Below, one piece after another: positions 4,008-22,574 of a stretch of 64,000 nucleotides of DNA. Within the stretch, counting starts at the first letter, position 1. The number at the start of each line of letters is the position of its first letter. Origin of the DNA: Acidimicrobiia bacterium (GTDB taxonomy: Bacteria; Actinomycetota; Acidimicrobiia; Spongiisociales; Spongiisociaceae); NCBI GenBank assembly GCA_011523635.1, contig WTGI01000009.1:16781-80780 (forward strand), read 5' to 3'. The translations under genes were made by a program, and so were the position numbers. The notes under the pieces were generated by a model. It did no database searches and was not told the DNA's origin. It saw only the letters and a program-made list of their open reading frames with translations.

Positions 4008-4171
4008 GCCAATTGGCTCGACCGACCCGAGGGAACAATCAGCTTCTAGGAGCGAAGGACCTTCATCCCGGCATCCAGCCGGGTATGGCCGACCACGCTC
4101 CAAACAGGAAAGGTGGTGGTGGGGGAGGGCCCGGTGCGGAGCGCCGGTTTTGCGGCGCGATTTTCGCGTTC
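4008..4171 (+). repeat. Copy 1 of a ~165-nt repeated structured intergenic element (candidate sRNA, cis-RNA or REP/MITE-like)
   Basis: Aligns over its full length with 10957..11118 and partially with the reverse complement of 43910..44076. Shared parts: GCCAATTGGC start, CCCGGCATCCAGCCGGG hairpin, G-rich (GGN)6 tract, hairpin CCGGTGC-GGA-GCGCCGG followed by TTTT, and a terminal CGCGATTTTCGCG hairpin. Reading frames are not conserved between copies, so it is non-coding. Confidence 0.6.
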
Positions 4172-5274
4172 TCGGGCCGGTCCGGCGGTGGCGCCGGGCG
4201 GTTGTGGTGCTGCTTATCTCCTCGCTGGTGGCTTGCGGTTTCGGATCCGACCCGACCGAGGAGGTGCCTTCCCCGGTCTGCGCGTCCGGGCAGATCGACG
4301 GCGAGGTGGTGCTGCTCAGCCGCGACGGGCAGATGGCGCCGGAGGTCATCGACCGGTTCGAGCGGCGCTACGCGGTGGACGTCAAGGAGCTGTTCTACGA
4401 GACCGACGGTGAGATGCTGTCCCGTGTAACCGCAGGCGCCGACCCGTTCGACGTGGTGATTCTTCGCCAGGACCTGGCGGCGATTCTCTGGCGTGGAGGC
4501 CAGCTCCACGCTCTCGACCCGATCGCCTTGCCGGGTCGGGTCAACCTCGACACGCAGCTCACCCGACCGGACTCGGATACCGAGGGCTTCTACACGGTGC
4601 CGCTCGTCTGGGGCACGGTCGGGATCGGTTTGAATGTCAACGTGGTGCCGGACACGGCCGAAACGAGCTGGGGACTCATCTTCGATCTCTCCCAAGCTTG
4701 GATCTACGCGGGTCGGGTCTCGCTCCTTGATGATCCCCGCCAGGTCATGGCCGCCGCCATGTTCTACCTGGGCTACTCGCCGAACTCGGCGAATCGGGAC
4801 GAGGTGCGGGAAGCCGGCCGGGTGGTGGCGGAGGCGAAGGCCCACTTGAGAGGGTTCGATTCCGAGGACTACGCGGCCAGGTTGGCCGATGGGGGGCTCG
4901 ACCTTGCTCAAGGCCGGTCGGATGACTTCCTGGCGGCCCTTGCGCCCGCCTCGGACGACTTCCTCTACGTCATACCCCAGGAAGGGGCCGCGATCTGGTT
5001 GGAGTCGATGGCCGTACCCGTCACCTCCCAGCATCCGTGCAGTGCCCACTCCTTCATCGACTACCTGCTCGAGCCTCGGACAGGAGCGCTAGTGGCCGAC
5101 CATATCGGAGAGGCCACCGCGAATACGGCCTCGCTTTCGTACCTGATGCCCGAGACCGCCGCCAACCGGACGCTCTATCCGACGCTCCTGGCCAGGGAGC
5201 GGCTGGTGCTCCTCGAATACACGGAGGAACTGGACCTCCTGTACGCCGAGGAGTTCGCTCTGGTGGTGGAATAG
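4150..5274 (+). CDS. polyamine (PotD/PotF-like) ABC transporter substrate-binding lipoprotein
   Basis: Lipoprotein signal RRWRRAVVVLLISSLVAC. SBP_bac_1/8-like body (DVVILRQD, YTVPLVWGTVGIGLN, YVIPQEGA) typical of spermidine/putrescine-binding proteins. The track ORF extends to 3922 only by reading through the repeat element. TTG 4150 or a downstream GTG is the likely start. Confidence 0.5.
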   Translation: MRRDFRVLGPVRRWRRAVVVLLISSLVACGFGSDPTEEVPSPVCASGQIDGEVVLLSRDGQMAPEVIDRFERRYAVDVKELFYETDGEMLSRVTAGADPFDVVILRQDLAAILWRGGQLHALDPIALPGRVNLDTQLTRPDSDTEGFYTVPLVWGTVGIGLNVNVVPDTAETSWGLIFDLSQAWIYAGRVSLLDDPRQVMAAAMFYLGYSPNSANRDEVREAGRVVAEAKAHLRGFDSEDYAARLADGGLDLAQGRSDDFLAALAPASDDFLYVIPQEGAAIWLESMAVPVTSQHPCSAHSFIDYLLEPRTGALVADHIGEATANTASLSYLMPETAANRTLYPTLLARERLVLLEYTEELDLLYAEEFALVVE

Positions 5275-15495: not shown

Positions 15496-15668
15496 CACCC
15501 CGCCCTGCCCGGCCGGCCATTGCGGCCATGGGTGAAGAGCCCTGGGTTCCGGGTGCCTGCTCTGGGACGCGCCTCCCGGATGGCGCCGGTCGACTCGCTC
15601 CGGGCCGGGGCAACCGGATGAAGCGGGTACGATGTCGCGATTGCGAGCGAGCCGGCGAGGATGCGTAG

Positions 15669-15944
15669 GTGAGTTACCAGGGTTACGTACGTGTCATCGG
15701 CGAGGGCGGGAACATCCTGGACGTGGCCGAGGTGTCTTTGGGTGAGATCGACCATCCGGGCCACCGCTGGGGTGGCACCATGACCGTGTGGAGTGGGGGC
15801 GCGCTCGACGGCAAGACCATGATGGTCGATCTGGAGGTCCCCGGTTCCTTCCGGGCGCCCGCCCTGATCCTTCCGGGCCCGGTATCGGGTAGGCAGCGCC
15901 AGATGTCGGTGCTGGGTAGCGGGGACTCGCCCTTCGCCGGCTGA
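15669..15944 (+). CDS. hypothetical small protein
   Basis: 91-aa ORF with coding-like GC3. No motif recognised. Confidence 0.3.
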   Translation: MSYQGYVRVIGEGGNILDVAEVSLGEIDHPGHRWGGTMTVWSGGALDGKTMMVDLEVPGSFRAPALILPGPVSGRQRQMSVLGSGDSPFAG

Positions 15945-15956
15945 ACCTTTACAGCT

Positions 15957-16457
15957 TCAGGGCAGGATCCAGGCCTCCGAGCCGTCGCCCGAAGCCGCCG
16001 CGGCCAGGTTGCGGACGCTGTTGATCACCGCTCCGAGGAGGGCAAGGACCAGGGCGGCATAGATAACCAGGACGGAAAGGATCGGAAGCGAACTCACCAG
16101 GGAAGGAACCGTGGTGGCGGCCGTGTAGAGGATGACCAGCGTGGACCAGGTCATGATCACCGCAACGATGAAGAAGACCGGCTTCGAAGCCCCCTCCGAC
16201 CGACCGATCCCCTTGTATATCAGGGGCGCCAGCACCGCCAGAATCCCGAAGGCGAGCATGGTGGCCTGCGCCCCCGCCCCCAGCAGCACCAGGACCAGGG
16301 CCAGCACCACCGCGATGCTCGAAGACCAGCTTGCGGAGAAGGACCACTGCAGCGGGCCGACCGTGCCCGACCATCCGTCCTGGGAATCGCGCACGGCCGC
16401 GTATGCGATCAGGAGTGCCACCAGGCCGATGGCAATGATCATCGTTTGCGGGTTCAT
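15957..16457 (-). CDS. hypothetical integral membrane protein (4-5 TM)
   Basis: Multiple hydrophobic helices (IIAIGLVALLIAYAAV, IAVVLALVLVLLGAGA, FFIVAVIMTWSTLVILY). The start is probably MNPQTMII. Confidence 0.5.
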   Translation of the reverse strand: MNPQTMIIAIGLVALLIAYAAVRDSQDGWSGTVGPLQWSFSASWSSSIAVVLALVLVLLGAGAQATMLAFGILAVLAPLIYKGIGRSEGASKPVFFIVAVIMTWSTLVILYTAATTVPSLVSSLPILSVLVIYAALVLALLGAVINSVRNLAAAASGDGSEAWILP

Positions 16458-16627
16458 GTGCTCCTCCCGTTCGTTCTGCCAGGCCCGCCAGGAGGGGATG
16501 CTCATCTCTCGCTGGCCGCGGGCTTGTGTTCCGTCCCTTGGTAGTTAGGACTCTACGGTACGCGTGGGCGTTTCACGAGTAGATTCCGCCGCGGACGACC
16601 CGGCCGTTGAGCGATCGGAGGTGCCGG

Positions 16628-16746
16628 TTGAGGTTTGCCGAGGTGGTTGCTACGTCGCGGAAGATCGCGGGCACGAGGGCGCGCCGCGCCAAGGTAGCCG
16701 GTCTGGCCGATCTCCTCGCTCGGGCGGAGCCCGAAGAGATACGGAT
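16628..16746 (+). pseudogene. 5' fragment (about 40 codons) of an ATP-dependent DNA ligase (LigB-like), separated from the rest of the gene by an IS insertion
   Basis: TTG start with a GGAGG RBS. It encodes MRFAEVVATSRKIAGTRARRAKVAGLADLLARAEPEEIR, a LigB N-terminus. The frame resumes exactly at 19866 after the element (EEIR|ILVGFLSGRP). Confidence 0.7.
16739..16746. repeat. 8-bp target-site duplication, left copy (ATACGGAT)
   Basis: Identical 8-mer at 19866..19873, immediately outside the other inverted repeat. Confidence 0.8.
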
Positions 16747-16768
16747 GGGAATTATACGCTTGACTTGA
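16747..16768. repeat. left terminal inverted repeat of the IS1595-family element
   Basis: GGGAATTATACGCTTGACTTGA. Similarity extends a few nt further inward. Confidence 0.8.
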
Positions 16769-16783
16769 AGCGGAGCGGGGTAT

Positions 16784-16960
16784 CAGTCGAGGAGTGCTTC
16801 AGCGGCAGCGTCTAGGAACTCGATGTCATGCTGGTAGGCCGCGATTATCCGCTGGGCGTCGTCGGGCGTGATGAACGTGTTGGTGAGGTCTGAGACCAAC
16901 CGATCGGTCCGTCCCTGCTTCAGGGCTTCAACGTCGGGGGTTGGCTGTTCGTCTGTCATT
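16784..16960 (-). CDS. hypothetical small protein (58 aa) inside the transposon
   Basis: Not in the track because it is under 60 aa. ATG preceded by an AGGAGGGA RBS. MTDEQPTPDVEALKQGRTDRLVSDLTNTFITPDDAQRIIAAYQHDIEFLDAAAEALLD. Confidence 0.3.
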
Positions 16961-17093
16961 CTGGTCCCTCCTGGTGAGTGGTGGCTTCCCGATCAGCGCT
17001 CTGGCTACGTCGATGGGTGTGGCACCCCGATAGGCCGGGTTCTCCGCCGGTGTGTGTGACCACTCATCGACCTTCGCCCGGCGGGTTTCGTCC

Positions 17094-17366
17094 TTAGACA
17101 CCGGCGCCGCCTTCTAGGTCCTGGACCCGAACGGTCAGGTCCGATACCGCGTCGATAAGCGCGGTGACGCCGGACTTGACGAAAGTCATGTCGTTCTCCA
17201 ACCCGTCGAGCCGTCCGTCCATTATGTCGAGTCTGCCGTCTATCCCGTCGAGCCTGCCGTTGATCCTGCCGATATCGCCCTTGATGACACCAAGGTCGTT
17301 CAGGATCACCGAGAACGCGGTCTCGATGTCGAACCCCTTGGGTTGACGGCGCGGCAGCGCGGCCAT
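17094..17366 (-). CDS. small coiled-coil protein with DGxxGRLD heptad-like repeats (passenger gene)
   Basis: The 90-aa version starts at MAALPRRQ with a GGAAGGAA RBS. Repeats are GRINGRLDGIDGRLDIMDGRLDGLEND. It loosely resembles XhlA-like phage coiled-coil proteins. Confidence 0.45.
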   Translation of the reverse strand: MAALPRRQPKGFDIETAFSVILNDLGVIKGDIGRINGRLDGIDGRLDIMDGRLDGLENDMTFVKSGVTALIDAVSDLTVRVQDLEGGAGV

Positions 17367-17449
17367 CTTGGTTCCTTCCAGATTGGACTGACTCGATCCT
17401 AACTCTACCAGCCGGGCGACAACCGTTGTCACGATCCGGTACGCTGGGC

Positions 17450-17567
17450 GTTGCCACCGACAACCCAGGAATCCCGCACCCGTGAGGGACCTGTACCGCA
17501 TGGTCCCTTCGGTCGGTTACGGGTTCCTGTGTCGGTGGCAACGGTACAGACCCCAACCGAAGGGACC
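17450..17567 (+). promoter_or_regulatory. structured 5' leader with RBS-sequestering alternative pairing upstream of the small membrane protein / SLH protein genes
   Basis: 13-bp perfect outer stem GTTGCCACCGACA...TGTCGGTGGCAAC and inner stem GAGGGACC..GGTCCCTTC. The segment GGTCCCTTCGG is also perfectly complementary to CCGAAGGGACC, which contains the GAAGGGA RBS 6 nt before the ATG at 17573. Confidence 0.45.
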
Positions 17568-17572
17568 ACCAC

Positions 17573-17896
17573 ATGGCCGACGATCTTGTACTTGAGGGGC
17601 AACCCGCCGCCCAGCCACCCATTCAGGCCGCCCCGAGCACCCGCGGTATCTTCTACGTGCTGGTCGGAATCCTGATCGTCCTCGCGGGCATTCTGTACTT
17701 CGTAGCTGACCAGGCTCTAGTCAACCCCATCAAACTGAAACAGGACTATTGCGTAGAGAGCGACGGCCAGGTCGTCTGGTCCACCGGCGGCGGCCTGATA
17801 TGCGACCAGAGACCCCTCCAGTCAATCGGTGAGAGCTTCGGCCAGAACGATTGGGTCATCATGGACGGCGCCTCGGCTAACCCCTTCGGCGGGTAG
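17573..17896 (+). CDS. small single-pass membrane protein (passenger gene)
   Basis: 107 aa. TM is GIFYVLVGILIVLAGILYFV. The C-terminal ectodomain has two Cys. Confidence 0.45.
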   Translation: MADDLVLEGQPAAQPPIQAAPSTRGIFYVLVGILIVLAGILYFVADQALVNPIKLKQDYCVESDGQVVWSTGGGLICDQRPLQSIGESFGQNDWVIMDGASANPFGG

Positions 17897-17899
17897 ACC

Positions 17900-18553
17900 A
17901 TGAGAACCAAACAAGTCACAGCCATTGCGTTGGTGCTAGTCCTGGCGGGCGGGTTGTCGGTGTGGGCACAGGCGTCCCGGTTTTCCGACGTACCAGACAG
18001 TCACCCCCAAGCGCACGATATCGAACACGCCGCCGAGCAGGGCTGGTTCGCCGGGTTCGTGGATGGCACGTTCCGACCAGACCAGACCATCTCAGCGGAG
18101 AACGCTCTGAGGGTGTTCAACCGGGCATTCCCCGAAGGTGTCACCCGTGCCGACCTCTCTACGTTCCTGCGGGCTGGGGCCAACCAGTTGGCCACCATCC
18201 ACCATGACGGATATTGGGGCTGCGTGAATGTCACCGATCAGGCCGCCGAACTGTCCGGTGGCGTAGTCGAGTCGATGGTCTTGCAGACCCTCTGCTACCT
18301 GAGAGTCGAACAGCAAATACGCAACGGGCAGGTGTGGGTTATCGCCCGCATCCAGACGCTCACCGACTGCCCGCGAGGCTGGGAGTTGGTGGTGCGCCTA
18401 TCGCCCGGTGAAGGCCTCGCCCCGTCCAGAACGTTAGGAACGGGGTACTCACCGAAGGCGTGGGCCGGTGATGTCCTGGTGGTTGGTGTCCCGTCGAACA
18501 TGGACCGATGGGAAACCCTCGACGTCACATCCGACTGCCACCAGCCCTGGTAA
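17900..18553 (+). CDS. secreted SLH (S-layer homology) domain protein (passenger gene)
   Basis: Signal peptide MRTKQVTAIALVLVLAGGLSVWAQA. SLH motif FSDVPDSHPQAHDIEHAAEQGWFAGFVDGTFRPDQTISAENALRVFNRAF. Cys-containing C-terminal domain of about 140 aa with unknown function. Confidence 0.6.
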   Translation: MRTKQVTAIALVLVLAGGLSVWAQASRFSDVPDSHPQAHDIEHAAEQGWFAGFVDGTFRPDQTISAENALRVFNRAFPEGVTRADLSTFLRAGANQLATIHHDGYWGCVNVTDQAAELSGGVVESMVLQTLCYLRVEQQIRNGQVWVIARIQTLTDCPRGWELVVRLSPGEGLAPSRTLGTGYSPKAWAGDVLVVGVPSNMDRWETLDVTSDCHQPW

Positions 18554-18560
18554 GGGGCTC

Positions 18561-18815
18561 CTATCGACAGAGCCGTTCAAGGGCGTCGTGTCCCTGCCAC
18601 GTCAGCCGCCCGAGGCGGGCATAACGCAGACCACCGCCCGATACGGCGATGGGTTTGCTGGCTTCGAGGTATCCGGCCTGTTCGCACAGGTGGACGTGGT
18701 AGTGAACCTGATCCGTGTCGTACCCGTCGATCTCGGGCACCGCACGCCCGGCAAGAGTGGGGGCCGATTCCGCGTACCGGAGAATCTCGCAGATGAGTTC
18801 CATGACTCGGGACAT
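18561..18815 (-). CDS. DUF2513 family protein (phage-associated small protein)
   Basis: 84 aa. MELICEILRYAE...IDGYDTDQVHYHVHLCEQAGYLEA...GGGLRYARLGRLTWQGHDALERL matches the DUF2513 pattern. Confidence 0.45.
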   Translation of the reverse strand: MSRVMELICEILRYAESAPTLAGRAVPEIDGYDTDQVHYHVHLCEQAGYLEASKPIAVSGGGLRYARLGRLTWQGHDALERLCR

Positions 18816-18828
18816 GCGTCGAAGCCTA

Positions 18829-19833
18829 CTAGGTGGCTAGGGAACTCTGCCCGGTGTCTGCGATCAGGTCTCGGTACATGAGACGGCGTCCGACCATCGC
18901 GGCAACTACGTGCTGCATCTGCGCGAGGGTGTCCCACTCGCGGATGTTCTGACGGCCTGCGAACACGTCGACGTACCGCTGTAGGTGCTTGGGGGAGAGC
19001 CGGTGGTAGACGCCTTTGTGGGCTCGTTTGAGCATCGACCAGAAGGATTCGACTCCGTTGGTGTGAACCATGTCCCTCACGTACTCGCCGACCGAGTGGT
19101 GGACAGCTTCACGGTTGGGGAGGCCGTCGTAGGCGGTTGACCCGTCCGTGTAGACCGGGGCGTTAGGGACGCGGTGTTCTTCGACGAATCCCTGGAGGGT
19201 GCAGGCCGTGGTGTTGGGCACGACTCGGGCGACGACTTGGCCGGTGGTGCGGTCCTTCATACCGACCACGGCGGTCTTACCGACCGGCCCGCGGCCGAGG
19301 TTCTGACGCTTGGAGCGGTGCTTGTTGCGCTCCAGACCGCCCACGTAGGTCTCGTCGACTTCGACCGGCCCCTCGAACAACGGGGCGATACCGGCGAACG
19401 CTTCCCGTATCCGATGGAGCATGAACCAGGCCGTAGCCTGCCGGACTCCGAGGTCACGGTGCAGCTTCATGGAGGACACGCCTTTGAGGCTGGTGAGCTC
19501 GAGGTAGATCGCCCACGCCCACATACGGAGCGGGAGCTTGGAGTCTTCCATGGCGGTGCCGGTCTTCAACGAGAAGTAGCGGCGGCACGTCCGGCAGCGG
19601 TACGGCATCGGCTTGGCGGACTTGACGCGGTAGGCGTCGTCCGATCCGCAGCGCAGGCACGCTATCTCACCGGTCGGCCAGTGGATGGCCTCGAACCAAT
19701 CGACGGCGTGCTGTTCGGTGGCGAACAACTCCGTCATCTGGAGGACGCTGATACCCTCGCGGTGTGCCTTGCCGGGGGCCTTTTGGCTTGCTCTGACAGT
19801 TGTGGTGCTCATGCCTGTATTCTCGCAGGTCAC
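18829..19833 (-). CDS. IS1595 family transposase (ISXO2-like DDE domain plus N-terminal zinc ribbon)
   Basis: CLRCGSDDAYRV...YRCRTCRRYFS zinc ribbon. ISXO2-like core VDETYVGG...KTAVVGMKDR...YTDGSTAY...HTNGVESFWSMLKR. It starts 32 nt inside the right inverted repeat. Confidence 0.85.
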   Translation of the reverse strand: MTCENTGMSTTTVRASQKAPGKAHREGISVLQMTELFATEQHAVDWFEAIHWPTGEIACLRCGSDDAYRVKSAKPMPYRCRTCRRYFSLKTGTAMEDSKLPLRMWAWAIYLELTSLKGVSSMKLHRDLGVRQATAWFMLHRIREAFAGIAPLFEGPVEVDETYVGGLERNKHRSKRQNLGRGPVGKTAVVGMKDRTTGQVVARVVPNTTACTLQGFVEEHRVPNAPVYTDGSTAYDGLPNREAVHHSVGEYVRDMVHTNGVESFWSMLKRAHKGVYHRLSPKHLQRYVDVFAGRQNIREWDTLAQMQHVVAAMVGRRLMYRDLIADTGQSSLAT

Positions 19834-21272
19834 GCCCGGTTTGTCAAGTCAAGCGTATAATCCCCATACGGATCCTGGTCGGCTTCCTCTCCGGCCGGCC
19901 GCGGCAGGGACGTGTTGGCGTGGGCCCGGCCGCGCTGTGGGCTTCGAAGGTCGATCCCGTGCCGGAACCGATCCTCGACATCACGGAGGTAGATCGGGTG
20001 ATCGGCACGATCCCGGGTATCACGGGTTCCGGTTCCCAGGCTCGCCGGACCGACCTGCTCGAGTTCCTGCTCGGTAGGGCCACCTCTGACGAGCAGGACT
20101 ACCTGCGGCGGCTGCTGACCGGAGAACTGCGGCACGGCGCGCTCGAGGGCCTGATGATGGACGCGGTGGCGGTGGCGTCGGGAATCGATGCGGCAGTGGT
20201 GAGGCGGGCCGCCATGCTCGGGGGTGACCTCGGATCGATCGCCGTTCCGGCCCTCACGGAGGGAGCGGAGGCTCTGCAGGCGATGCGCATCGTTCCGTTG
20301 CGGCCGGTCCGGCCGATGCTGGCCTCGACCTCCGCGTCGGCCGCGGATGCGATGGAGTCGTCCGGGCGGGCATCGGTGGAGTGGAAGCTCGACGGCGTCC
20401 GCATCCAGGCGCACCGGTCCGGTTCGCAGGTGGCGGTGTTCAGCCGGCGGCTCAACGACGTCACCGACCGGCTGCCGCTGGTGGCCGAGGTGGTGTCCGG
20501 CCTTCCCGTCTCGAGCGTGGTGCTCGACGGGGAGGTGCTGGCTCATGATCTCGAGGGCCGGCCGGAGCGCTTCGAGCAGATCATGAGCCACTTCGGCACC
20601 CATGAGGAGGGCGGCAGGAAACCGCTGTACCCGCACTTCTTCGACATCCTGCATCTCGACGGCGAGGATCTGATCGACCTTCCCCTCGGACGGCGCATCG
20701 CCGTGCTCGAGGACCTGGTCCCGAGCGAGTGTCTGGTTCCCAGGCTGGTCACCGACCGGGTCGCGGAAGCCGAGGGTGCCTTGTCGGAAGCCCGCCGGAG
20801 CCGCCACGAGGGGATCATGGTCAAGGCGATCGGCTCGACCTACCAGGCGGGCCGGAGGGGGTCGGCCTGGCTCAAGGTCAAGCCGGCCTATCACCTCGAC
20901 CTGGTGGTGCTGGCCGCCGAATGGGGCCACGGGCGCCGGACCGGGCGGCTCTCCAACCTGCACCTGGGTGCCCGGGACGCCGAGAGCGACCGGTTCGTGA
21001 TGGTGGGCAAGACCTTCAAGGGCCTGACCGATGCGATGCTGGCCTGGCAGACCGAGCGGTTCCTGGAGATCGCGGTCCGAAGGGAACGCCATGTCGTGTT
21101 CCTGCAGCCCGAGGTGGTGGTGGAGGTGGCCTTCGACGGGGTTCAGTCGAGCCCGGTGTATCCGGGCGGGGTAGCGCTCCGTTTCGCCCGCGTCAAGCAG
21201 TACCGGCCCGACAAGCCGCCCGTTCAGGCCGACACCATCCAGCGGATCCAGCGGATATTCGAGGAACGCTGA
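19800..21272 (+). CDS. ATP-dependent DNA ligase (LigB-like), 3' portion after the IS insertion point
   Basis: EWKLDGVR (KxDG adenylation motif), then the OB domain and C-terminal LKVKPAYHLDLVV. The track ORF begins at an ATG inside the transposon right end (19800). Native codons resume at 19866 (IRILVGFLSGRPRQ, compare mycobacterial LigB). Confidence 0.75.
   Translation: MWCSCLYSRRSRPVCQVKRIIPIRILVGFLSGRPRQGRVGVGPAALWASKVDPVPEPILDITEVDRVIGTIPGITGSGSQARRTDLLEFLLGRATSDEQDYLRRLLTGELRHGALEGLMMDAVAVASGIDAAVVRRAAMLGGDLGSIAVPALTEGAEALQAMRIVPLRPVRPMLASTSASAADAMESSGRASVEWKLDGVRIQAHRSGSQVAVFSRRLNDVTDRLPLVAEVVSGLPVSSVVLDGEVLAHDLEGRPERFEQIMSHFGTHEEGGRKPLYPHFFDILHLDGEDLIDLPLGRRIAVLEDLVPSECLVPRLVTDRVAEAEGALSEARRSRHEGIMVKAIGSTYQAGRRGSAWLKVKPAYHLDLVVLAAEWGHGRRTGRLSNLHLGARDAESDRFVMVGKTFKGLTDAMLAWQTERFLEIAVRRERHVVFLQPEVVVEVAFDGVQSSPVYPGGVALRFARVKQYRPDKPPVQADTIQRIQRIFEER
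19844..19865. repeat. right terminal inverted repeat of the IS1595-family element
   Basis: TCAAGTCAAGCGTATAATCCCC is the reverse complement of GGGGATTATACGCTTGACTTGA. Confidence 0.8.
19866..19873. repeat. 8-bp target-site duplication, right copy (ATACGGAT)
   Basis: Identical to 16739..16746. Confidence 0.8.
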
Positions 21273-21281
21273 GGGTGACGG

Positions 21282-22574
21282 CTATCGATGGATGCCGTAG
21301 GGGTCCGTGTCGGCGGGTTCGGCCATCGAGATCAGCAGGGCGCTCACCAGGACCACCTGGGCTAGCAGCGCCGCGCATCCGGCCAGGATCAGCCCGAGCG
21401 TGGCGGGGATGCGTACCAGTACGGGGATGACTGCTCCAACTACCCAGGCGAGTTGGAAGAGGGTCTCCGAATAGGTGAAGGTCCGGCCCCGTTCCTCGGG
21501 CCTGACGCTGGCGTGGAGGAGGCCGTCGTATCCGAACTTGGCCGTTCCCCAGGCCAGCCCGGCGAAGAACGCCACGGCCGCGGCCGACCACACGCCGAAC
21601 ACATGGGCGCTGATGAACGCCGCGGCCGCCTCCAGGGCCAGGGCCGCCACCACCATCGGTTCCTCGCGAAGGCGTCGAGCCAGGAACTGCGCCAGCAGCG
21701 ACGCCACGCCGAATCCGGCGCCGGCGGCGAGCAGCAGGCTGCCGAATCCCACTATTCCCGCTTCGTTGTCCCGGAACACAAAGGCCACCAGGAGGAGGAG
21801 GTAGCCGTTCAGTAGGCGGACGATGGCGGTGGCTATGCGGGCGTGGCGGACCGCCCGCCGGGACGCGGGGGACCGGGCGGCATGCACCGCCTCCGCGCCC
21901 GGATCCCGGGCGGCCGGCCGCAGGTCTACTCGCAGACCCAGAGCGGAGACGCCCGACCAGGCGAAGACAACGGCTGCCAGCACGAGGGCGGCTGTGCTTC
22001 CCACCAGATTGATGGCTCCCAGCCCGATCGGGAGGACTGCGCCGCCGGCGAGGATTCCGAGCCGGGCGAGGCGGGCGTTGGCCTCCACCAGATCGGCCGG
22101 ATTCGGTAGCGCGGTGGGCAGGATGGAGCTACGGCTGATCCCGTAGATCCGGGACAGCACCAGGATCCCGAACACCATCGACAGCATCACGAGGTCGGTT
22201 TCCGCTCGCATCATGGCGACCACCAGCACCACCCGCCCGAGCGATCCGAAGGCTAGGCCGGCCCGGTGGCTGCGGGGTAGCCGATGGACCAGCGAGCCGA
22301 GGAGGGGTCCGATCACGGCGAAGGGGGCCAGGGTGAGGAGCAGGAACGCGACCACGTTGCCGCGAGCCTCGGTGGTGGGCACCGAGAAGAAGAGCGTGTC
22401 GGCGAGGGCCAGGGCCACCAGGGCGTCTCCGGTCACGTTGGTGGCGTGGGAGATGGCCAGCCGCCGGAAGGCCCAGCCATGTCGTGAGAACTGTTCCTCG
22501 ATCTTGCGGCCCACGGCCCGGGTGGCGCGGGAAATCTTCGAGGGTGGCCGGGGCGGCGGAGAGGCAGAGCTCAT
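21282..22574 (-). CDS. MFS transporter
   Basis: 430 aa with about 12 TM segments and an MFS-like layout. Confidence 0.65.
   Translation of the reverse strand: MSSASPPPRPPSKISRATRAVGRKIEEQFSRHGWAFRRLAISHATNVTGDALVALALADTLFFSVPTTEARGNVVAFLLLTLAPFAVIGPLLGSLVHRLPRSHRAGLAFGSLGRVVLVVAMMRAETDLVMLSMVFGILVLSRIYGISRSSILPTALPNPADLVEANARLARLGILAGGAVLPIGLGAINLVGSTAALVLAAVVFAWSGVSALGLRVDLRPAARDPGAEAVHAARSPASRRAVRHARIATAIVRLLNGYLLLLVAFVFRDNEAGIVGFGSLLLAAGAGFGVASLLAQFLARRLREEPMVVAALALEAAAAFISAHVFGVWSAAAVAFFAGLAWGTAKFGYDGLLHASVRPEERGRTFTYSETLFQLAWVVGAVIPVLVRIPATLGLILAGCAALLAQVVLVSALLISMAEPADTDPYGIHR

What the first reader, a model, noticed from the sequence alone, without database searches (positions are those of the whole stretch)
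16628..21272. Precise IS1595-family insertion splits a LigB-like ATP-dependent DNA ligase gene
Seen directly in the sequence: a 3,119-bp element is bounded by 22-bp inverted repeats (GGGAATTATACGCTTGACTTGA / GGGGATTATACGCTTGACTTGA). It is flanked by a perfect 8-bp direct repeat ATACGGAT, which matches the 8-bp target-site duplication typical of IS1595-family elements. If the element and one repeat copy are deleted, the upstream 40 codons (MRFAEVVATSRKIAGTRARRAKVAGLADLLARAEPEEIR, TTG start with GGAGG RBS) join in frame to ILVGFLSGRPRQGRVGVGPAALW..., giving a ligase of about 505 aa with the KxDG motif. So this is a recent, clean insertion. The ligase is now either inactivated or expressed as an N-truncated form from an in-element ATG at 19800, possibly driven by an outward promoter in the right end of the element.
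Basis: seen in the sequence. Interest (0 to 1): 0.75.

Follow-up and report, generated by a model that had tools for sequence, protein, structure and literature searches.

The report
Cargo-carrying IS1595 element splits ligase gene
A 3.1-kb jumping gene of the well-known IS1595 family, carrying five extra genes, has inserted cleanly into a non-essential ATP-dependent DNA ligase gene of an uncultured Acidimicrobiia bacterium; close relatives still have the intact gene, so this is a real, textbook event rather than a new kind of biology.

Summary
The element spans 16747-19865 (3,119 bp). It has 22-nt terminal inverted repeats (21/22 match) and a perfect 8-bp direct repeat, ATACGGAT. Removing the element plus one repeat copy restores a 505-aa three-domain ATP-dependent DNA ligase (NCBIfam PRK03180 equivalog, full length).

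Syntenic "empty sites" exist. A 95-96% identical contig (L016) and several 86-90% identical contigs carry ATACGGAT once at exactly this position in an intact ligase gene. Four related elements with the same ends sit elsewhere with different 8-bp duplications, so the repeat is a target duplication and not part of the element.

The transposase has the IS1595 zinc ribbon and DDE domain with invariant D153/D223/E255/K262. About 2 kb of the element is cargo: five ORFs, including an SLH-domain protein and a DUF2513 protein. This makes it a "transporter IS".

The identical insertion was assembled on 14 contigs from at least 8 samples, with 0 differences in 3,119 bp. It is therefore a single, recent event that is widespread in this population.

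Position 19800 is TTG, not ATG. No full outward promoter is present, only an outward TATAAT in the terminal repeat. The ligase is most likely inactivated.

Verdict: new member of a known kind, low interest.

The parts
16617..16621 (+). GGAGG ribosome-binding site of the ligase gene, 6 nt before the TTG start
   Evidence: Direct reading. Homologues start at the same residue, MR[FL]AEVV.
16628..16746 (+). 5' fragment of the ATP-dependent DNA ligase (codons 1-39 plus 2 nt). As it stands it reads on into the element for 7 codons (MGIIRLT) to a TGA at 16766-16768.
   Evidence: ORF list. The reconstructed protein is identical over its first 70 aa to the intact P0245.
16739..16746 (.). Left copy of the 8-bp target-site duplication ATACGGAT
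   Evidence: present once in the empty sites L001-L004 and L016.
16747..19865 (-). Whole IS1595-family element with cargo (3,119 bp, 62.6% GC against 66-69% in the flanks). The transposase is on the minus strand.
   Evidence: BLAST of the window against empty-site contigs breaks exactly at 16746/19866 with an 8-bp overlap in the subject.
16747..16768 (+). Terminal inverted repeat distal to the transposase (IRR in IS convention): GGGAATTATACGCTTGACTTGA
   Evidence: The same repeat bounds sister elements in L005, L017-L019.
16783..16959 (-). Cargo ORF, 58 aa, no family match
   Evidence: Called as a gene in all independent assemblies. No Pfam, NCBIfam or PADLOC hit.
17094..17366 (-). Cargo ORF, 90 aa from the ATG at 17366, with 7-aa (21-nt) repeats GRLDGID; probably coiled coil
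   Evidence: (repeat family D1). Only weak PHROG hits.
17449..17568 (+). Conserved structured intergenic region. It contains a long hairpin (17449-17543). It also allows an alternative 12-nt pairing, GGTCCCTTCGGT with ACCGAAGGGACC, that covers the putative RBS of the next ORF.
   Evidence: MFE -69.3 kcal/mol, z = -3.99. Conserved in L020 and L027, with 8 pairs changed on both sides. No Rfam match.
17573..17896 (+). Cargo ORF, 107 aa, with one hydrophobic (membrane-like) segment
   Evidence: Partial homologue in L027.
17900..18553 (+). Cargo ORF, 217 aa, with a hydrophobic N-terminus that looks like a signal peptide (by eye) and an S-layer-homology (SLH) domain
   Evidence: Pfam SLH 2e-05, 24.9 bits against a cut-off of 20.8. 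Only 12 homologues in 5.8 billion proteins. One is next to a related IS1595 transposase (L020) and one is from Candidatus Spongiisocius.
18561..18815 (-). Cargo ORF, 84 aa, DUF2513, 13 nt downstream of the transposase on the same strand
   Evidence: Pfam DUF2513 2.2e-13. phrog_585 6.5e-08. A 45% identical homologue lies in the sister element L019.
18829..19812 (-). IS1595-family DDE transposase, 327 aa from the ATG at 19812
   Evidence: Pfam and NCBIfam. Invariant C52/C55/C73/C76 and D153/D223/E255/K262 in an 18-sequence alignment. An identical protein, P0121, is found on 14 contigs.
19819..19847 (-). Inward-facing sigma-70-like promoter for the transposase: -35 TTGACA inside the terminal repeat, 17-nt spacer, TG-extended -10 GAGAAT
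   Evidence: It is the only such site in 16400-20100, but one site is also what shuffles give, so this is a consensus match only.
19844..19865 (-). Terminal inverted repeat proximal to the transposase (IRL in IS convention). It contains an outward-facing TATAAT at 19856-19861 on the + strand.
   Evidence: direct reading.
19866..19873 (.). Right copy of the 8-bp target-site duplication ATACGGAT
19866..21272 (+). 3' fragment of the ligase (residues 38/40-505: the rest of the DNA-binding domain, the adenylation domain with K211, and the OB domain). Gene callers annotate a 450-aa ORF from the GTG at 19920.

Best explanation
An autonomous IS1595-family insertion sequence carries about 2 kb of passenger genes, which makes it a 'transporter IS'. 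It transposed once into codon 38-40 of a chromosomal LigB-type ATP-dependent DNA ligase gene in an uncultured Acidimicrobiia bacterium.

Mechanism (inferred from family knowledge). The DDE transposase, with its zinc ribbon, binds the 22-nt terminal inverted repeats and joins the element ends to staggered cuts 8 bp apart in the target. Repair of the gaps then duplicated ATACGGAT.

Consequences for the ligase. [quoted passage not shown] The ligase is therefore most probably inactivated. This should be tolerable because ATP-dependent ligases are accessory to the essential NAD+-dependent LigA.

Timing and spread. The event is recent, with no sequence change since insertion. The insertion allele is nevertheless the one assembled in every sample in which this population was found.

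What is shown and what is inferred. Shown: the boundaries, the target duplication, the empty sites, family membership, intactness of the transposase, and the cargo. Inferred: the transposition chemistry, loss of ligase function, and dispensability of the ligase.
For: - Boundaries, IRs and TSD.
- Empty sites. L016 is 95-96% nt identical, its ±40 bp around the target is identical, and its ligase P0245 is 98.2% identical over all 505 aa. L001-L004 and L022 are 86-90% identical and have the same neighbouring genes. In each case the two BLAST segments overlap by exactly the 8 bp of the TSD.
- Sister elements with the same IRs have different 8-bp duplications: ATTTATAT, TTCGTATA, ACATATTG, AGTTCGAC. 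Removing one of them (L017) restores a 1,050-codon helicase-like frame.
- Transposase family and catalytic residues.
- Reconstructed ligase. PF04675 + PF01068 + PF04679. PRK03180 equivalog at 683 bits against a cut-off of 641, residues 1-503. Gap-free alignment across the junction, with invariant V42-G-F-L and G47/P49-R-Q-G-R just after it.
- One event, real and recent. The identical junctions appear in 14 contigs from JGI, ENA and Logan assemblies of at least 8 samples. There are 0 of 3,119 differences in the element while the flanks vary. dN/dS of the reconstructed gene against the intact allele is 0.17, compared with 0.14-0.15 between intact lineages.
- The lost N-terminus is structural. 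Residues 1-46 are three confidently modelled helices (pLDDT 83-94) of the helical DNA-binding domain, with invariant residues V6, S10, T16, R17, R19, R20, K22 and L26.
- Literature. IS1595 family features (PMC8101967). ISs with passenger genes are called transporter ISs (PMC3129680). LigB architecture and LigA essentiality (PMC1920237).
Against: - No expression or activity data exist, so 'inactivated' is inference.
- The 3' ORF is intact. It has an in-frame GTG at 19920 preceded by AGGGA, and the terminal repeat carries an outward-facing TATAAT (19856-61). This could act as a -10-only promoter in an actinobacterium, so a 450-aa N-truncated protein cannot be excluded.
- No LigA gene lies in the window, so the redundancy is assumed and not shown.
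- No second copy of this exact element was found, so its current mobility is not demonstrated.
- An empty allele was not found in the window's own samples.
Confidence: 0.93

Rival explanations
1. The insertion did not kill the gene. An N-truncated ligase (450 aa from the GTG at 19920, or 490 aa from the TTG at 19800) is transcribed from the right end of the element and keeps some function.
For: The 3' ORF is intact in all strains. dN/dS shows no relaxation. An outward-facing perfect TATAAT lies 4 nt from the right tip (19856-61). AGGGA lies 10 nt before the GTG at 19920. Gene callers annotate the 450-aa ORF.
Against: The lack of relaxation is equally explained by recency, since the element shows 0 differences. 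No -35 element and no outward promoter were found by the scan. A transcript from the TATAAT would start near 19868 and so could not include the TTG at 19800, which also has no Shine-Dalgarno sequence. Either product lacks 2.5-3 conserved helices of the DNA-binding domain and 8 invariant residues.
Confidence: 0.1
2. The element is an old, fixed and now immobile relic, and the split ligase is a long-standing pseudogene rather than a recent event.
For: All 14 contigs that carry this transposase have it at this one locus. Only one copy is seen per genome.
Against: The TSD is perfect and the IRs match 21/22. The transposase is full length with all catalytic and zinc-binding residues. There are zero substitutions in 3,119 bp across strains whose neighbouring DNA differs by 2-4%. 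Neither ligase fragment has a frameshift or stop codon, and only 9 aa differ from an intact allele. The closest relative at 95-96% identity is still empty.
Confidence: 0.04
3. The junctions are an assembly chimera: a mobile element misjoined into the ligase locus by a metagenome assembler.
For: The window is a metagenome contig (identical to JGI Ga0326861_10000012), and the flanks show mosaic divergence.
Against: The same two junctions, to the base, were assembled independently by three pipelines (JGI, ENA, Logan) from at least 8 samples. The junctions carry the exact signature of transposition: an 8-bp duplication of a sequence that is single in the empty sites.
Confidence: 0.01
4. The 3.1-kb unit is not one IS but a compound or nested structure: a ~1.1-kb IS1595 plus unrelated captured DNA that does not move with it.
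For: Typical IS1595 members are about 1 kb. The cargo differs completely between sister elements.
Against: There is no internal copy of the terminal repeat, even allowing 8 mismatches. The TSD flanks the whole 3,119 bp, so the whole unit moved in one event. Four sister elements of 2.3-4.1 kb are also bounded by the same IRs with their own 8-bp TSDs around transposase plus cargo. A related transposase sits next to a related SLH gene in L020.
Confidence: 0.03

Closest known systems
IS1595 family insertion sequences with passenger genes ('transporter IS'; ISNwi1-type ends)
   Same: It has the zinc-ribbon plus DDE_Tnp_IS1595 transposase as a single ORF. The catalytic motif is D-D-E with K at +7. 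The target duplication is 8 bp. The terminal IRs start with GG. Extra genes unrelated to transposition lie inside the IRs (PMC8101967, PMC3129680). The ends, GGGAATTAT, fit the ISNwi1-group end consensus 'ggnnatTAT' as I recall it from ISfinder; I could not verify this here.
   Different: There is no named relative: the best annotated transposases in the plasmid collection are at most 45% identical. By ISfinder practice it would therefore get a new IS name. Its cargo set (SLH protein, DUF2513, three orphans, a structured leader) is not one I know to have been described. Assignment to a subgroup is not tested.
Bacterial LigB-type ATP-dependent DNA ligase (mycobacterial LigB; NCBIfam NF002868 / PRK03180)
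   Same: [quoted passage not shown] This architecture is as described for Mtu/Atu LigB (PMC1920237).
   Different: Here the gene is interrupted after codon 39. It is not in the Lhr-helicase/phosphodiesterase/nuclease operon described for many LigB genes (PMC10140301); its neighbours are a small membrane protein and an MFS transporter.
Archaeal three-domain ATP-dependent DNA ligases (e.g. PDB 4eq5, 2cfm, 3gde)
   Same: These are the closest solved structures (E about 1e-89 over residues ~75-503), with the same three-domain plan.
   Different: The similarity does not reach the first ~75 residues by sequence. The comparison is a structural reference only and not a membership claim.

Membership tests
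IS1595 family (insertion sequence) | Transposase with the C-terminal DDE_Tnp_IS1595 catalytic domain | tested here: met
   PF12762 2.7e-38, profile positions 3-153 of 153. NF033547 185 bits against a cut-off of 75. Invariant D153, D223, E255, K262.
IS1595 family (insertion sequence) | N-terminal zinc-ribbon domain (present in all groups except IS1016) | tested here: met
   PF12760 27.7 bits against a cut-off of 25.4. C52, C55, C73 and C76 are invariant in 18 homologues.
IS1595 family (insertion sequence) | 8-bp target-site duplication generated on insertion | tested here: met
   ATACGGAT is present twice here and once in five empty-site contigs. Four sister elements have other 8-bp duplications.
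IS1595 family (insertion sequence) | Terminal inverted repeats bounding the element, and a single transposase ORF | tested here: met
   22-nt IRs matching 21/22. One uninterrupted 327-aa ORF.
IS1595 family (insertion sequence) | Demonstrated transposition activity of this element | not testable with these tools
   Activity is only inferred, from the perfect TSD, the intact transposase and the empty sites.
ISNwi1 subgroup / 'transporter IS' (ISNwi1+) | End consensus ggnnatTAT and a DDEK motif (criteria recalled from ISfinder, not verified in a held paper) | tested here: inconclusive
   The ends GGGAATTAT / GGGGATTAT and D-D-E-K(+7) fit. However, the defining table could not be retrieved, and no ISNwi1 reference sequence was available for comparison.
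ISNwi1 subgroup / 'transporter IS' (ISNwi1+) | Passenger genes unrelated to transposition lie inside the IRs and move with the element | tested here: met
   Five ORFs lie between the IRs. The TSD flanks the whole unit, and there is no internal IR. Sister elements carry other cargo inside the same IRs.
LigB-type ATP-dependent DNA ligase | N-terminal DNA-binding domain (PF04675) + adenylation domain (PF01068) with the KxDG lysine + OB domain (PF04679) | tested here: met
   All three domains are found in the reconstructed protein. K211-L-D-G is invariant. The PRK03180 equivalog cut-off is passed. This holds only after removing the element in silico.
LigB-type ATP-dependent DNA ligase | Intact, expressible gene encoding an active nick-sealing enzyme | tested here: not met
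   The gene is split at codon 39/40 by 3,127 bp. The 5' part terminates in the IR. Activity itself is not testable here.

The most novel reading that the evidence does not exclude
The cargo of this IS may be more than junk. A small operon encodes a secreted SLH-domain protein and a membrane protein. It is preceded by a conserved, covarying ~120-nt structured leader with an anti-Shine-Dalgarno switch that has no Rfam family. This operon may be a new cis-regulated cell-envelope module spread between symbiont phyla by IS1595 elements. Its benefit, or a benefit of losing LigB, could explain why the ligase-disrupting allele is the only one assembled in at least 8 samples.
Probability: 0.1. Interest if true: 0.45.

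Novelty: new member of a known kind. Interest (0 to 1): 0.2.

Why it matters
The main value is for annotation. The 450-aa 'ATP-dependent DNA ligase' called in public records of this organism is the 3' remnant of an IS-split gene. The element is an unnamed, cargo-carrying IS1595 member whose relatives occur in Acidimicrobiia, Gemmatimonadota and Proteobacteria MAGs.

It is also a clean natural example, with both filled and empty sites available. It shows an IS moving 2 kb of passenger genes in one step and knocking out an accessory DNA-repair ligase in an uncultured population. It does not change any concept of transposition or DNA repair.

Tried and rejected
- Rfam on the element (E up to 1) and on the whole window (gathering threshold): no hits. 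tRNA scan of the window: none, so the element is not a tRNA-targeted island.
- PADLOC on the cargo: only one hit, at noise level. PHROGs: only unknown-function families. There is therefore no evidence that this element's cargo is a defence system, although sister elements carry an HNH gene and a methyltransferase-Mrr gene.
- Exact 505-aa reconstructed ligase in the 15-billion-protein collection: absent.
- Exact 31-nt empty-site junction in JGI metagenome contigs: 0 hits. A 20-nt core finds only the ~89% relatives plus three chance matches. No within-sample polymorphism could be shown.
- Dating the insertion from strain divergence was rejected. The differences between strains are clustered in abrupt ~10%-divergent tracts that begin at 20969, which are recombination or assembly mosaics, so they are not clock-like.
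- An internal IR copy, which would indicate a compound structure: none with up to 8 mismatches.
- The ISfinder subgroup table could not be retrieved from the paper library.
- Genomic context of the Candidatus Spongiisocius SLH homologue: not on record.
- The AlphaFold model was confident only for the DNA-binding domain (residues 1-175). The catalytic core was poor because the alignment had only 13 sequences, so no fold search was run.
- A 16-nt core of the leader in viral contigs: only chance-length matches.

Full report
**1. The observation**

Reading 16400-21500 and checking by script confirms every coordinate in the finding.
- GGGAATTATACGCTTGACTTGA lies at 16747-16768.
- Its near-perfect inverted copy lies at 19844-19865 (GGGGATTATACGCTTGACTTGA when reverse-complemented, 21/22 identical).
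- The distance from the first to the last base of the element is 3,119 bp.
- ATACGGAT lies immediately outside both ends, at 16739-46 and 19866-73.

The repeat finder returns this as the longest inverted pair in the region (I1). The IR pattern with up to 3 mismatches occurs only at these two places in the 64-kb window, against 0 in 100 shuffles.

The element has 62.6% G+C, against 66-69% for the flanks.

**2. What the element is**

*The transposase.* The largest ORF is 18829-19812 on the minus strand, 327 aa from the ATG. It matches Pfam DDE_Tnp_IS1595 (2.7e-38, full profile) and Zn_ribbon_IS1595. It also matches NCBIfam transpos_IS1595 (185 bits against a cut-off of 75). In an alignment with 17 homologues of 65-86% identity, the four zinc-binding cysteines (C52, C55, C73, C76) and D153, D223, E255 and K262 are invariant. 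The enzyme therefore looks catalytically intact.

*Transposase promoter.* The one sigma-70-like site in the region faces inward. Its -35 TTGACA lies inside the terminal repeat, and its TG-extended -10 lies upstream of the transposase ATG. This layout is as I recall it for many ISs, but it is only a consensus match, and one site is also what shuffles of the region give.

*The cargo.* The remaining ~2 kb holds five ORFs. All five are called as genes in every independent assembly.
- A 58-aa ORF and a 90-aa ORF with heptad-like repeats, both on the minus strand.
- A 107-aa membrane-like ORF and a 217-aa protein with a hydrophobic, signal-peptide-like N-terminus (by eye) and an SLH domain, both on the plus strand.
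- An 84-aa DUF2513 protein directly behind the transposase.

No internal copy of the terminal repeat exists. The 8-bp duplication flanks the whole unit, so all 3,119 bp moved together.

This matches what the literature calls an IS with passenger genes, or 'transporter IS', first described for the IS1595 family (PMC3129680, citing Siguier et al. 2009). The family definition is an 8-bp TSD, a single transposase, and a zinc finger plus DDE_Tnp_IS1595 (PMC8101967).

**3. The split gene**

Joining 16628-16746 to 19874-21272 gives a 1,518-nt ORF of 505 aa.
- It passes the NCBIfam equivalog PRK03180 'ATP-dependent DNA ligase' (683 bits, cut-off 641) over residues 1-503 of 505.
- A search of 5.8 billion proteins finds thousands of uninterrupted homologues. 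The best have 90% identity and 100% coverage.
- In the alignment there is no gap at the junction. The junction sits in ...EPEEIR|ILVGFLSG..., followed by the invariant V42-G-F-L and G47/P49-R-Q-G-R.

The architecture, a ligase core plus an N-terminal DNA-binding domain, is the LigB type described for mycobacteria and Agrobacterium (PMC1920237). So 'LigB-like' is a fair label.

**4.

*Distant relatives.* The contigs that encode the 90% homologue P0002 have the same neighbours as the window: a 166-aa membrane protein upstream, and an MFS transporter, aldolase, CoA-transferase and glycine-cleavage genes downstream. BLAST of the window against them gives two segments, one ending at 16746 and one starting at 19866. 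In the subject these segments overlap by exactly 8 bp, and that overlap is ATACGGAT, present once.

*Closest relative.* Cluster look-up found P0245 (MDE0369602.1), an intact allele 98.2% identical to the reconstructed protein and identical over its first 70 residues. Its contig, L016, is 95-96% identical in DNA. It is identical for 40 bp on each side of the target, and again has ATACGGAT once.

**5. Is the 8-mer part of the element?

A scan of one genome per species for the terminal repeat, together with look-ups of transposases ~85% identical by the look-up's own figure (83-84% when aligned to the loci by tblastn), gave four complete sister elements. All are bounded by the same repeat (0-5 mismatches).

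| Locus | Size | 8-bp duplication | Host or cargo |
|---|---|---|---|
| L005 | 4,056 bp | ATTTATAT | Longimicrobiales MAG |
| L017 | 2,317 bp | TTCGTATA | HNH cargo |
| L018 | 2,660 bp | ACATATTG | methyltransferase-Mrr cargo |
| L019 | 3,436 bp | AGTTCGAC | small ORFs, including a DUF2513 homologue |

The duplications all differ, so they are target-derived. Removing the L017 element restores a 1,050-codon helicase-like frame. That is a second clean gene disruption by this IS group.

**6. Age and spread**

The window is identical to JGI contig Ga0326861_10000012. The identical transposase occurs on 14 contigs from at least 8 samples, assembled by three pipelines, and always at this locus. This rules out an assembly chimera and indicates a single copy per genome.

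Among these contigs the element shows 0 differences in 3,119 bp. The flanks differ by up to 2-4%. Those flank differences are concentrated in abrupt tracts, for example from 20969 onward. These look like recombination or assembly mosaics, so I did not use them as a clock.

The reconstructed ligase differs from the intact L016 allele at 34 nt and 9 aa, giving dN/dS 0.17. That is the same as between intact lineages (0.14-0.15).

Taken together, the perfect TSD, the intact transposase, the intact ligase halves and the zero variation support a recent, single insertion that is now the allele assembled wherever this population is seen. Polymorphism remains untested.

**7. Consequence for the ligase**

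The 5' fragment now encodes 39 native residues plus MGIIRLT and stops inside the repeat.

The frame opens only at 19797.

No outward -35/-10 promoter is found. However, the conserved end motif contains a perfect TATAAT at 19856-61 facing outward, 4 nt from the tip, with its mirror image at the left end. In actinobacteria, where to my knowledge -10-only promoters are common, this could fire. The transcript would then begin near 19868. It could only serve the GTG at 19920, which is preceded by AGGGA and is the 450-aa ORF that gene callers annotate.

Such a product lacks residues 1-55. In an AlphaFold model whose DNA-binding domain is confident (pLDDT 80-95 for residues 1-120), residues 3-46 form three helices of that domain, and the insertion cuts helix 35-46. 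Eight invariant residues lie in this segment.

I therefore rate inactivation as most likely (about 0.8, given that the insertion is real) and a functional truncated enzyme as possible (about 0.1). Tolerance of the loss is inferred from family knowledge: NAD+-dependent LigA is the essential bacterial ligase, and ATP-dependent ligases are accessory (PMC1920237). No LigA gene is in the window, so I could not confirm it.

**8. Host and distribution**

Members of the same 90% ligase cluster are labelled Acidimicrobiia. The SLH cargo protein has only 12 homologues. One is from Candidatus Spongiisocius (Acidimicrobiia), and one lies next to a 72% identical IS1595 transposase (L020).

Transposase relatives of 65-77% identity carry source labels of Candidatus Palauibacter, Gemmatimonadetes, Gammaproteobacteria and Acidimicrobiia, or no taxon label at all ('bacterium'); an Alphaproteobacteria MAG (L006) carries the terminal repeat and a 61% identical transposase. 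The IS group therefore crosses phyla.

Annotated plasmid-borne relatives are at most 45% identical, and all are labelled 'IS1595 family transposase'. This is an unnamed member of the family. The ends, GGGAATTAT, fit the ISNwi1-group consensus as I remember it, but I could not retrieve the defining table. Subgroup membership is left inconclusive.

**9. Verdict**

The finding is correct and is now well documented. It is an ordinary IS insertion by a new, cargo-bearing member of a known family into an accessory repair gene. Interest is low.

The only mildly unusual item is a conserved, covarying structured leader inside the cargo. It is recorded under things noticed in passing.

Noticed in passing
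window 17449-17568 (+); also L020 ~4095-4225 and L027 ~305-445: A structured intergenic region lies inside the IS cargo, upstream of orf107. It forms a long hairpin (MFE -69.3 kcal/mol, z -3.99). It is conserved in three loci, with 8 base pairs changed on both sides. A 12-nt segment, GGTCCCTTCGGT, is exactly complementary to ACCGAAGGGACC over the putative ribosome-binding site. This suggests an RNA switch that controls translation. It has no Rfam family. Only three sequences are available, so the evidence is weak.
   Followed up: partly
L005 1760-5815; L017 5925-8241; L018 5948-8607; L019 5948-9383: Sister IS1595 elements with the same 22-nt ends and their own 8-bp duplications carry entirely different cargo: an HNH endonuclease, an N6/N4 methyltransferase fused to an Mrr-like nuclease domain, or several small ORFs. 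This IS group therefore acts as a general shuttle for 1-3 kb of genes, across Acidimicrobiia, Gemmatimonadota and Proteobacteria MAGs.
   Followed up: partly
L017 4045-9519 (-): One sister element splits a ~1,050-codon AAA_11/AAA_12/DUF559 helicase-like gene. Removing the element plus one TSD copy restores the frame. This is a second clean gene disruption by this IS group.
   Followed up: yes
window 16751-16756 (- strand) and 19856-19861 (+ strand): Both terminal repeats contain a perfect TATAAT hexamer facing outward, 4 nt from the tip. It is part of the conserved end motif. It could act as an outward -10 element that turns on neighbouring genes after insertion. This is untested.
   Followed up: no
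window 20969-21300 and beyond, versus L009/L012: Strains that share the identical insertion are identical from about 15608 to 20968. They then switch abruptly to ~10% local divergence (30 differences in 300 bp), including a 3-nt deletion that removes the ligase stop codon. This looks like a homologous-recombination tract from a related lineage, or a strain-mosaic assembly.
   Followed up: partly
window ~15516-15568 versus L002 2344-8927: The 86-90% relatives carry an extra ~6.6-kb block between the luciferase-like gene and the genes upstream of the ligase. The block encodes a 493-aa SLH protein, a peptidoglycan-binding protein, and an ABC/FtsX (MacB-like) transporter. It is absent from the window and from L016.
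   Followed up: no
window 21264-21272: The window's ligase ends ...IFEER*, whereas the closest relatives end ...IFEERG* or ...IFEERGG*. This is a small C-terminal difference of unknown relevance.
   Followed up: no
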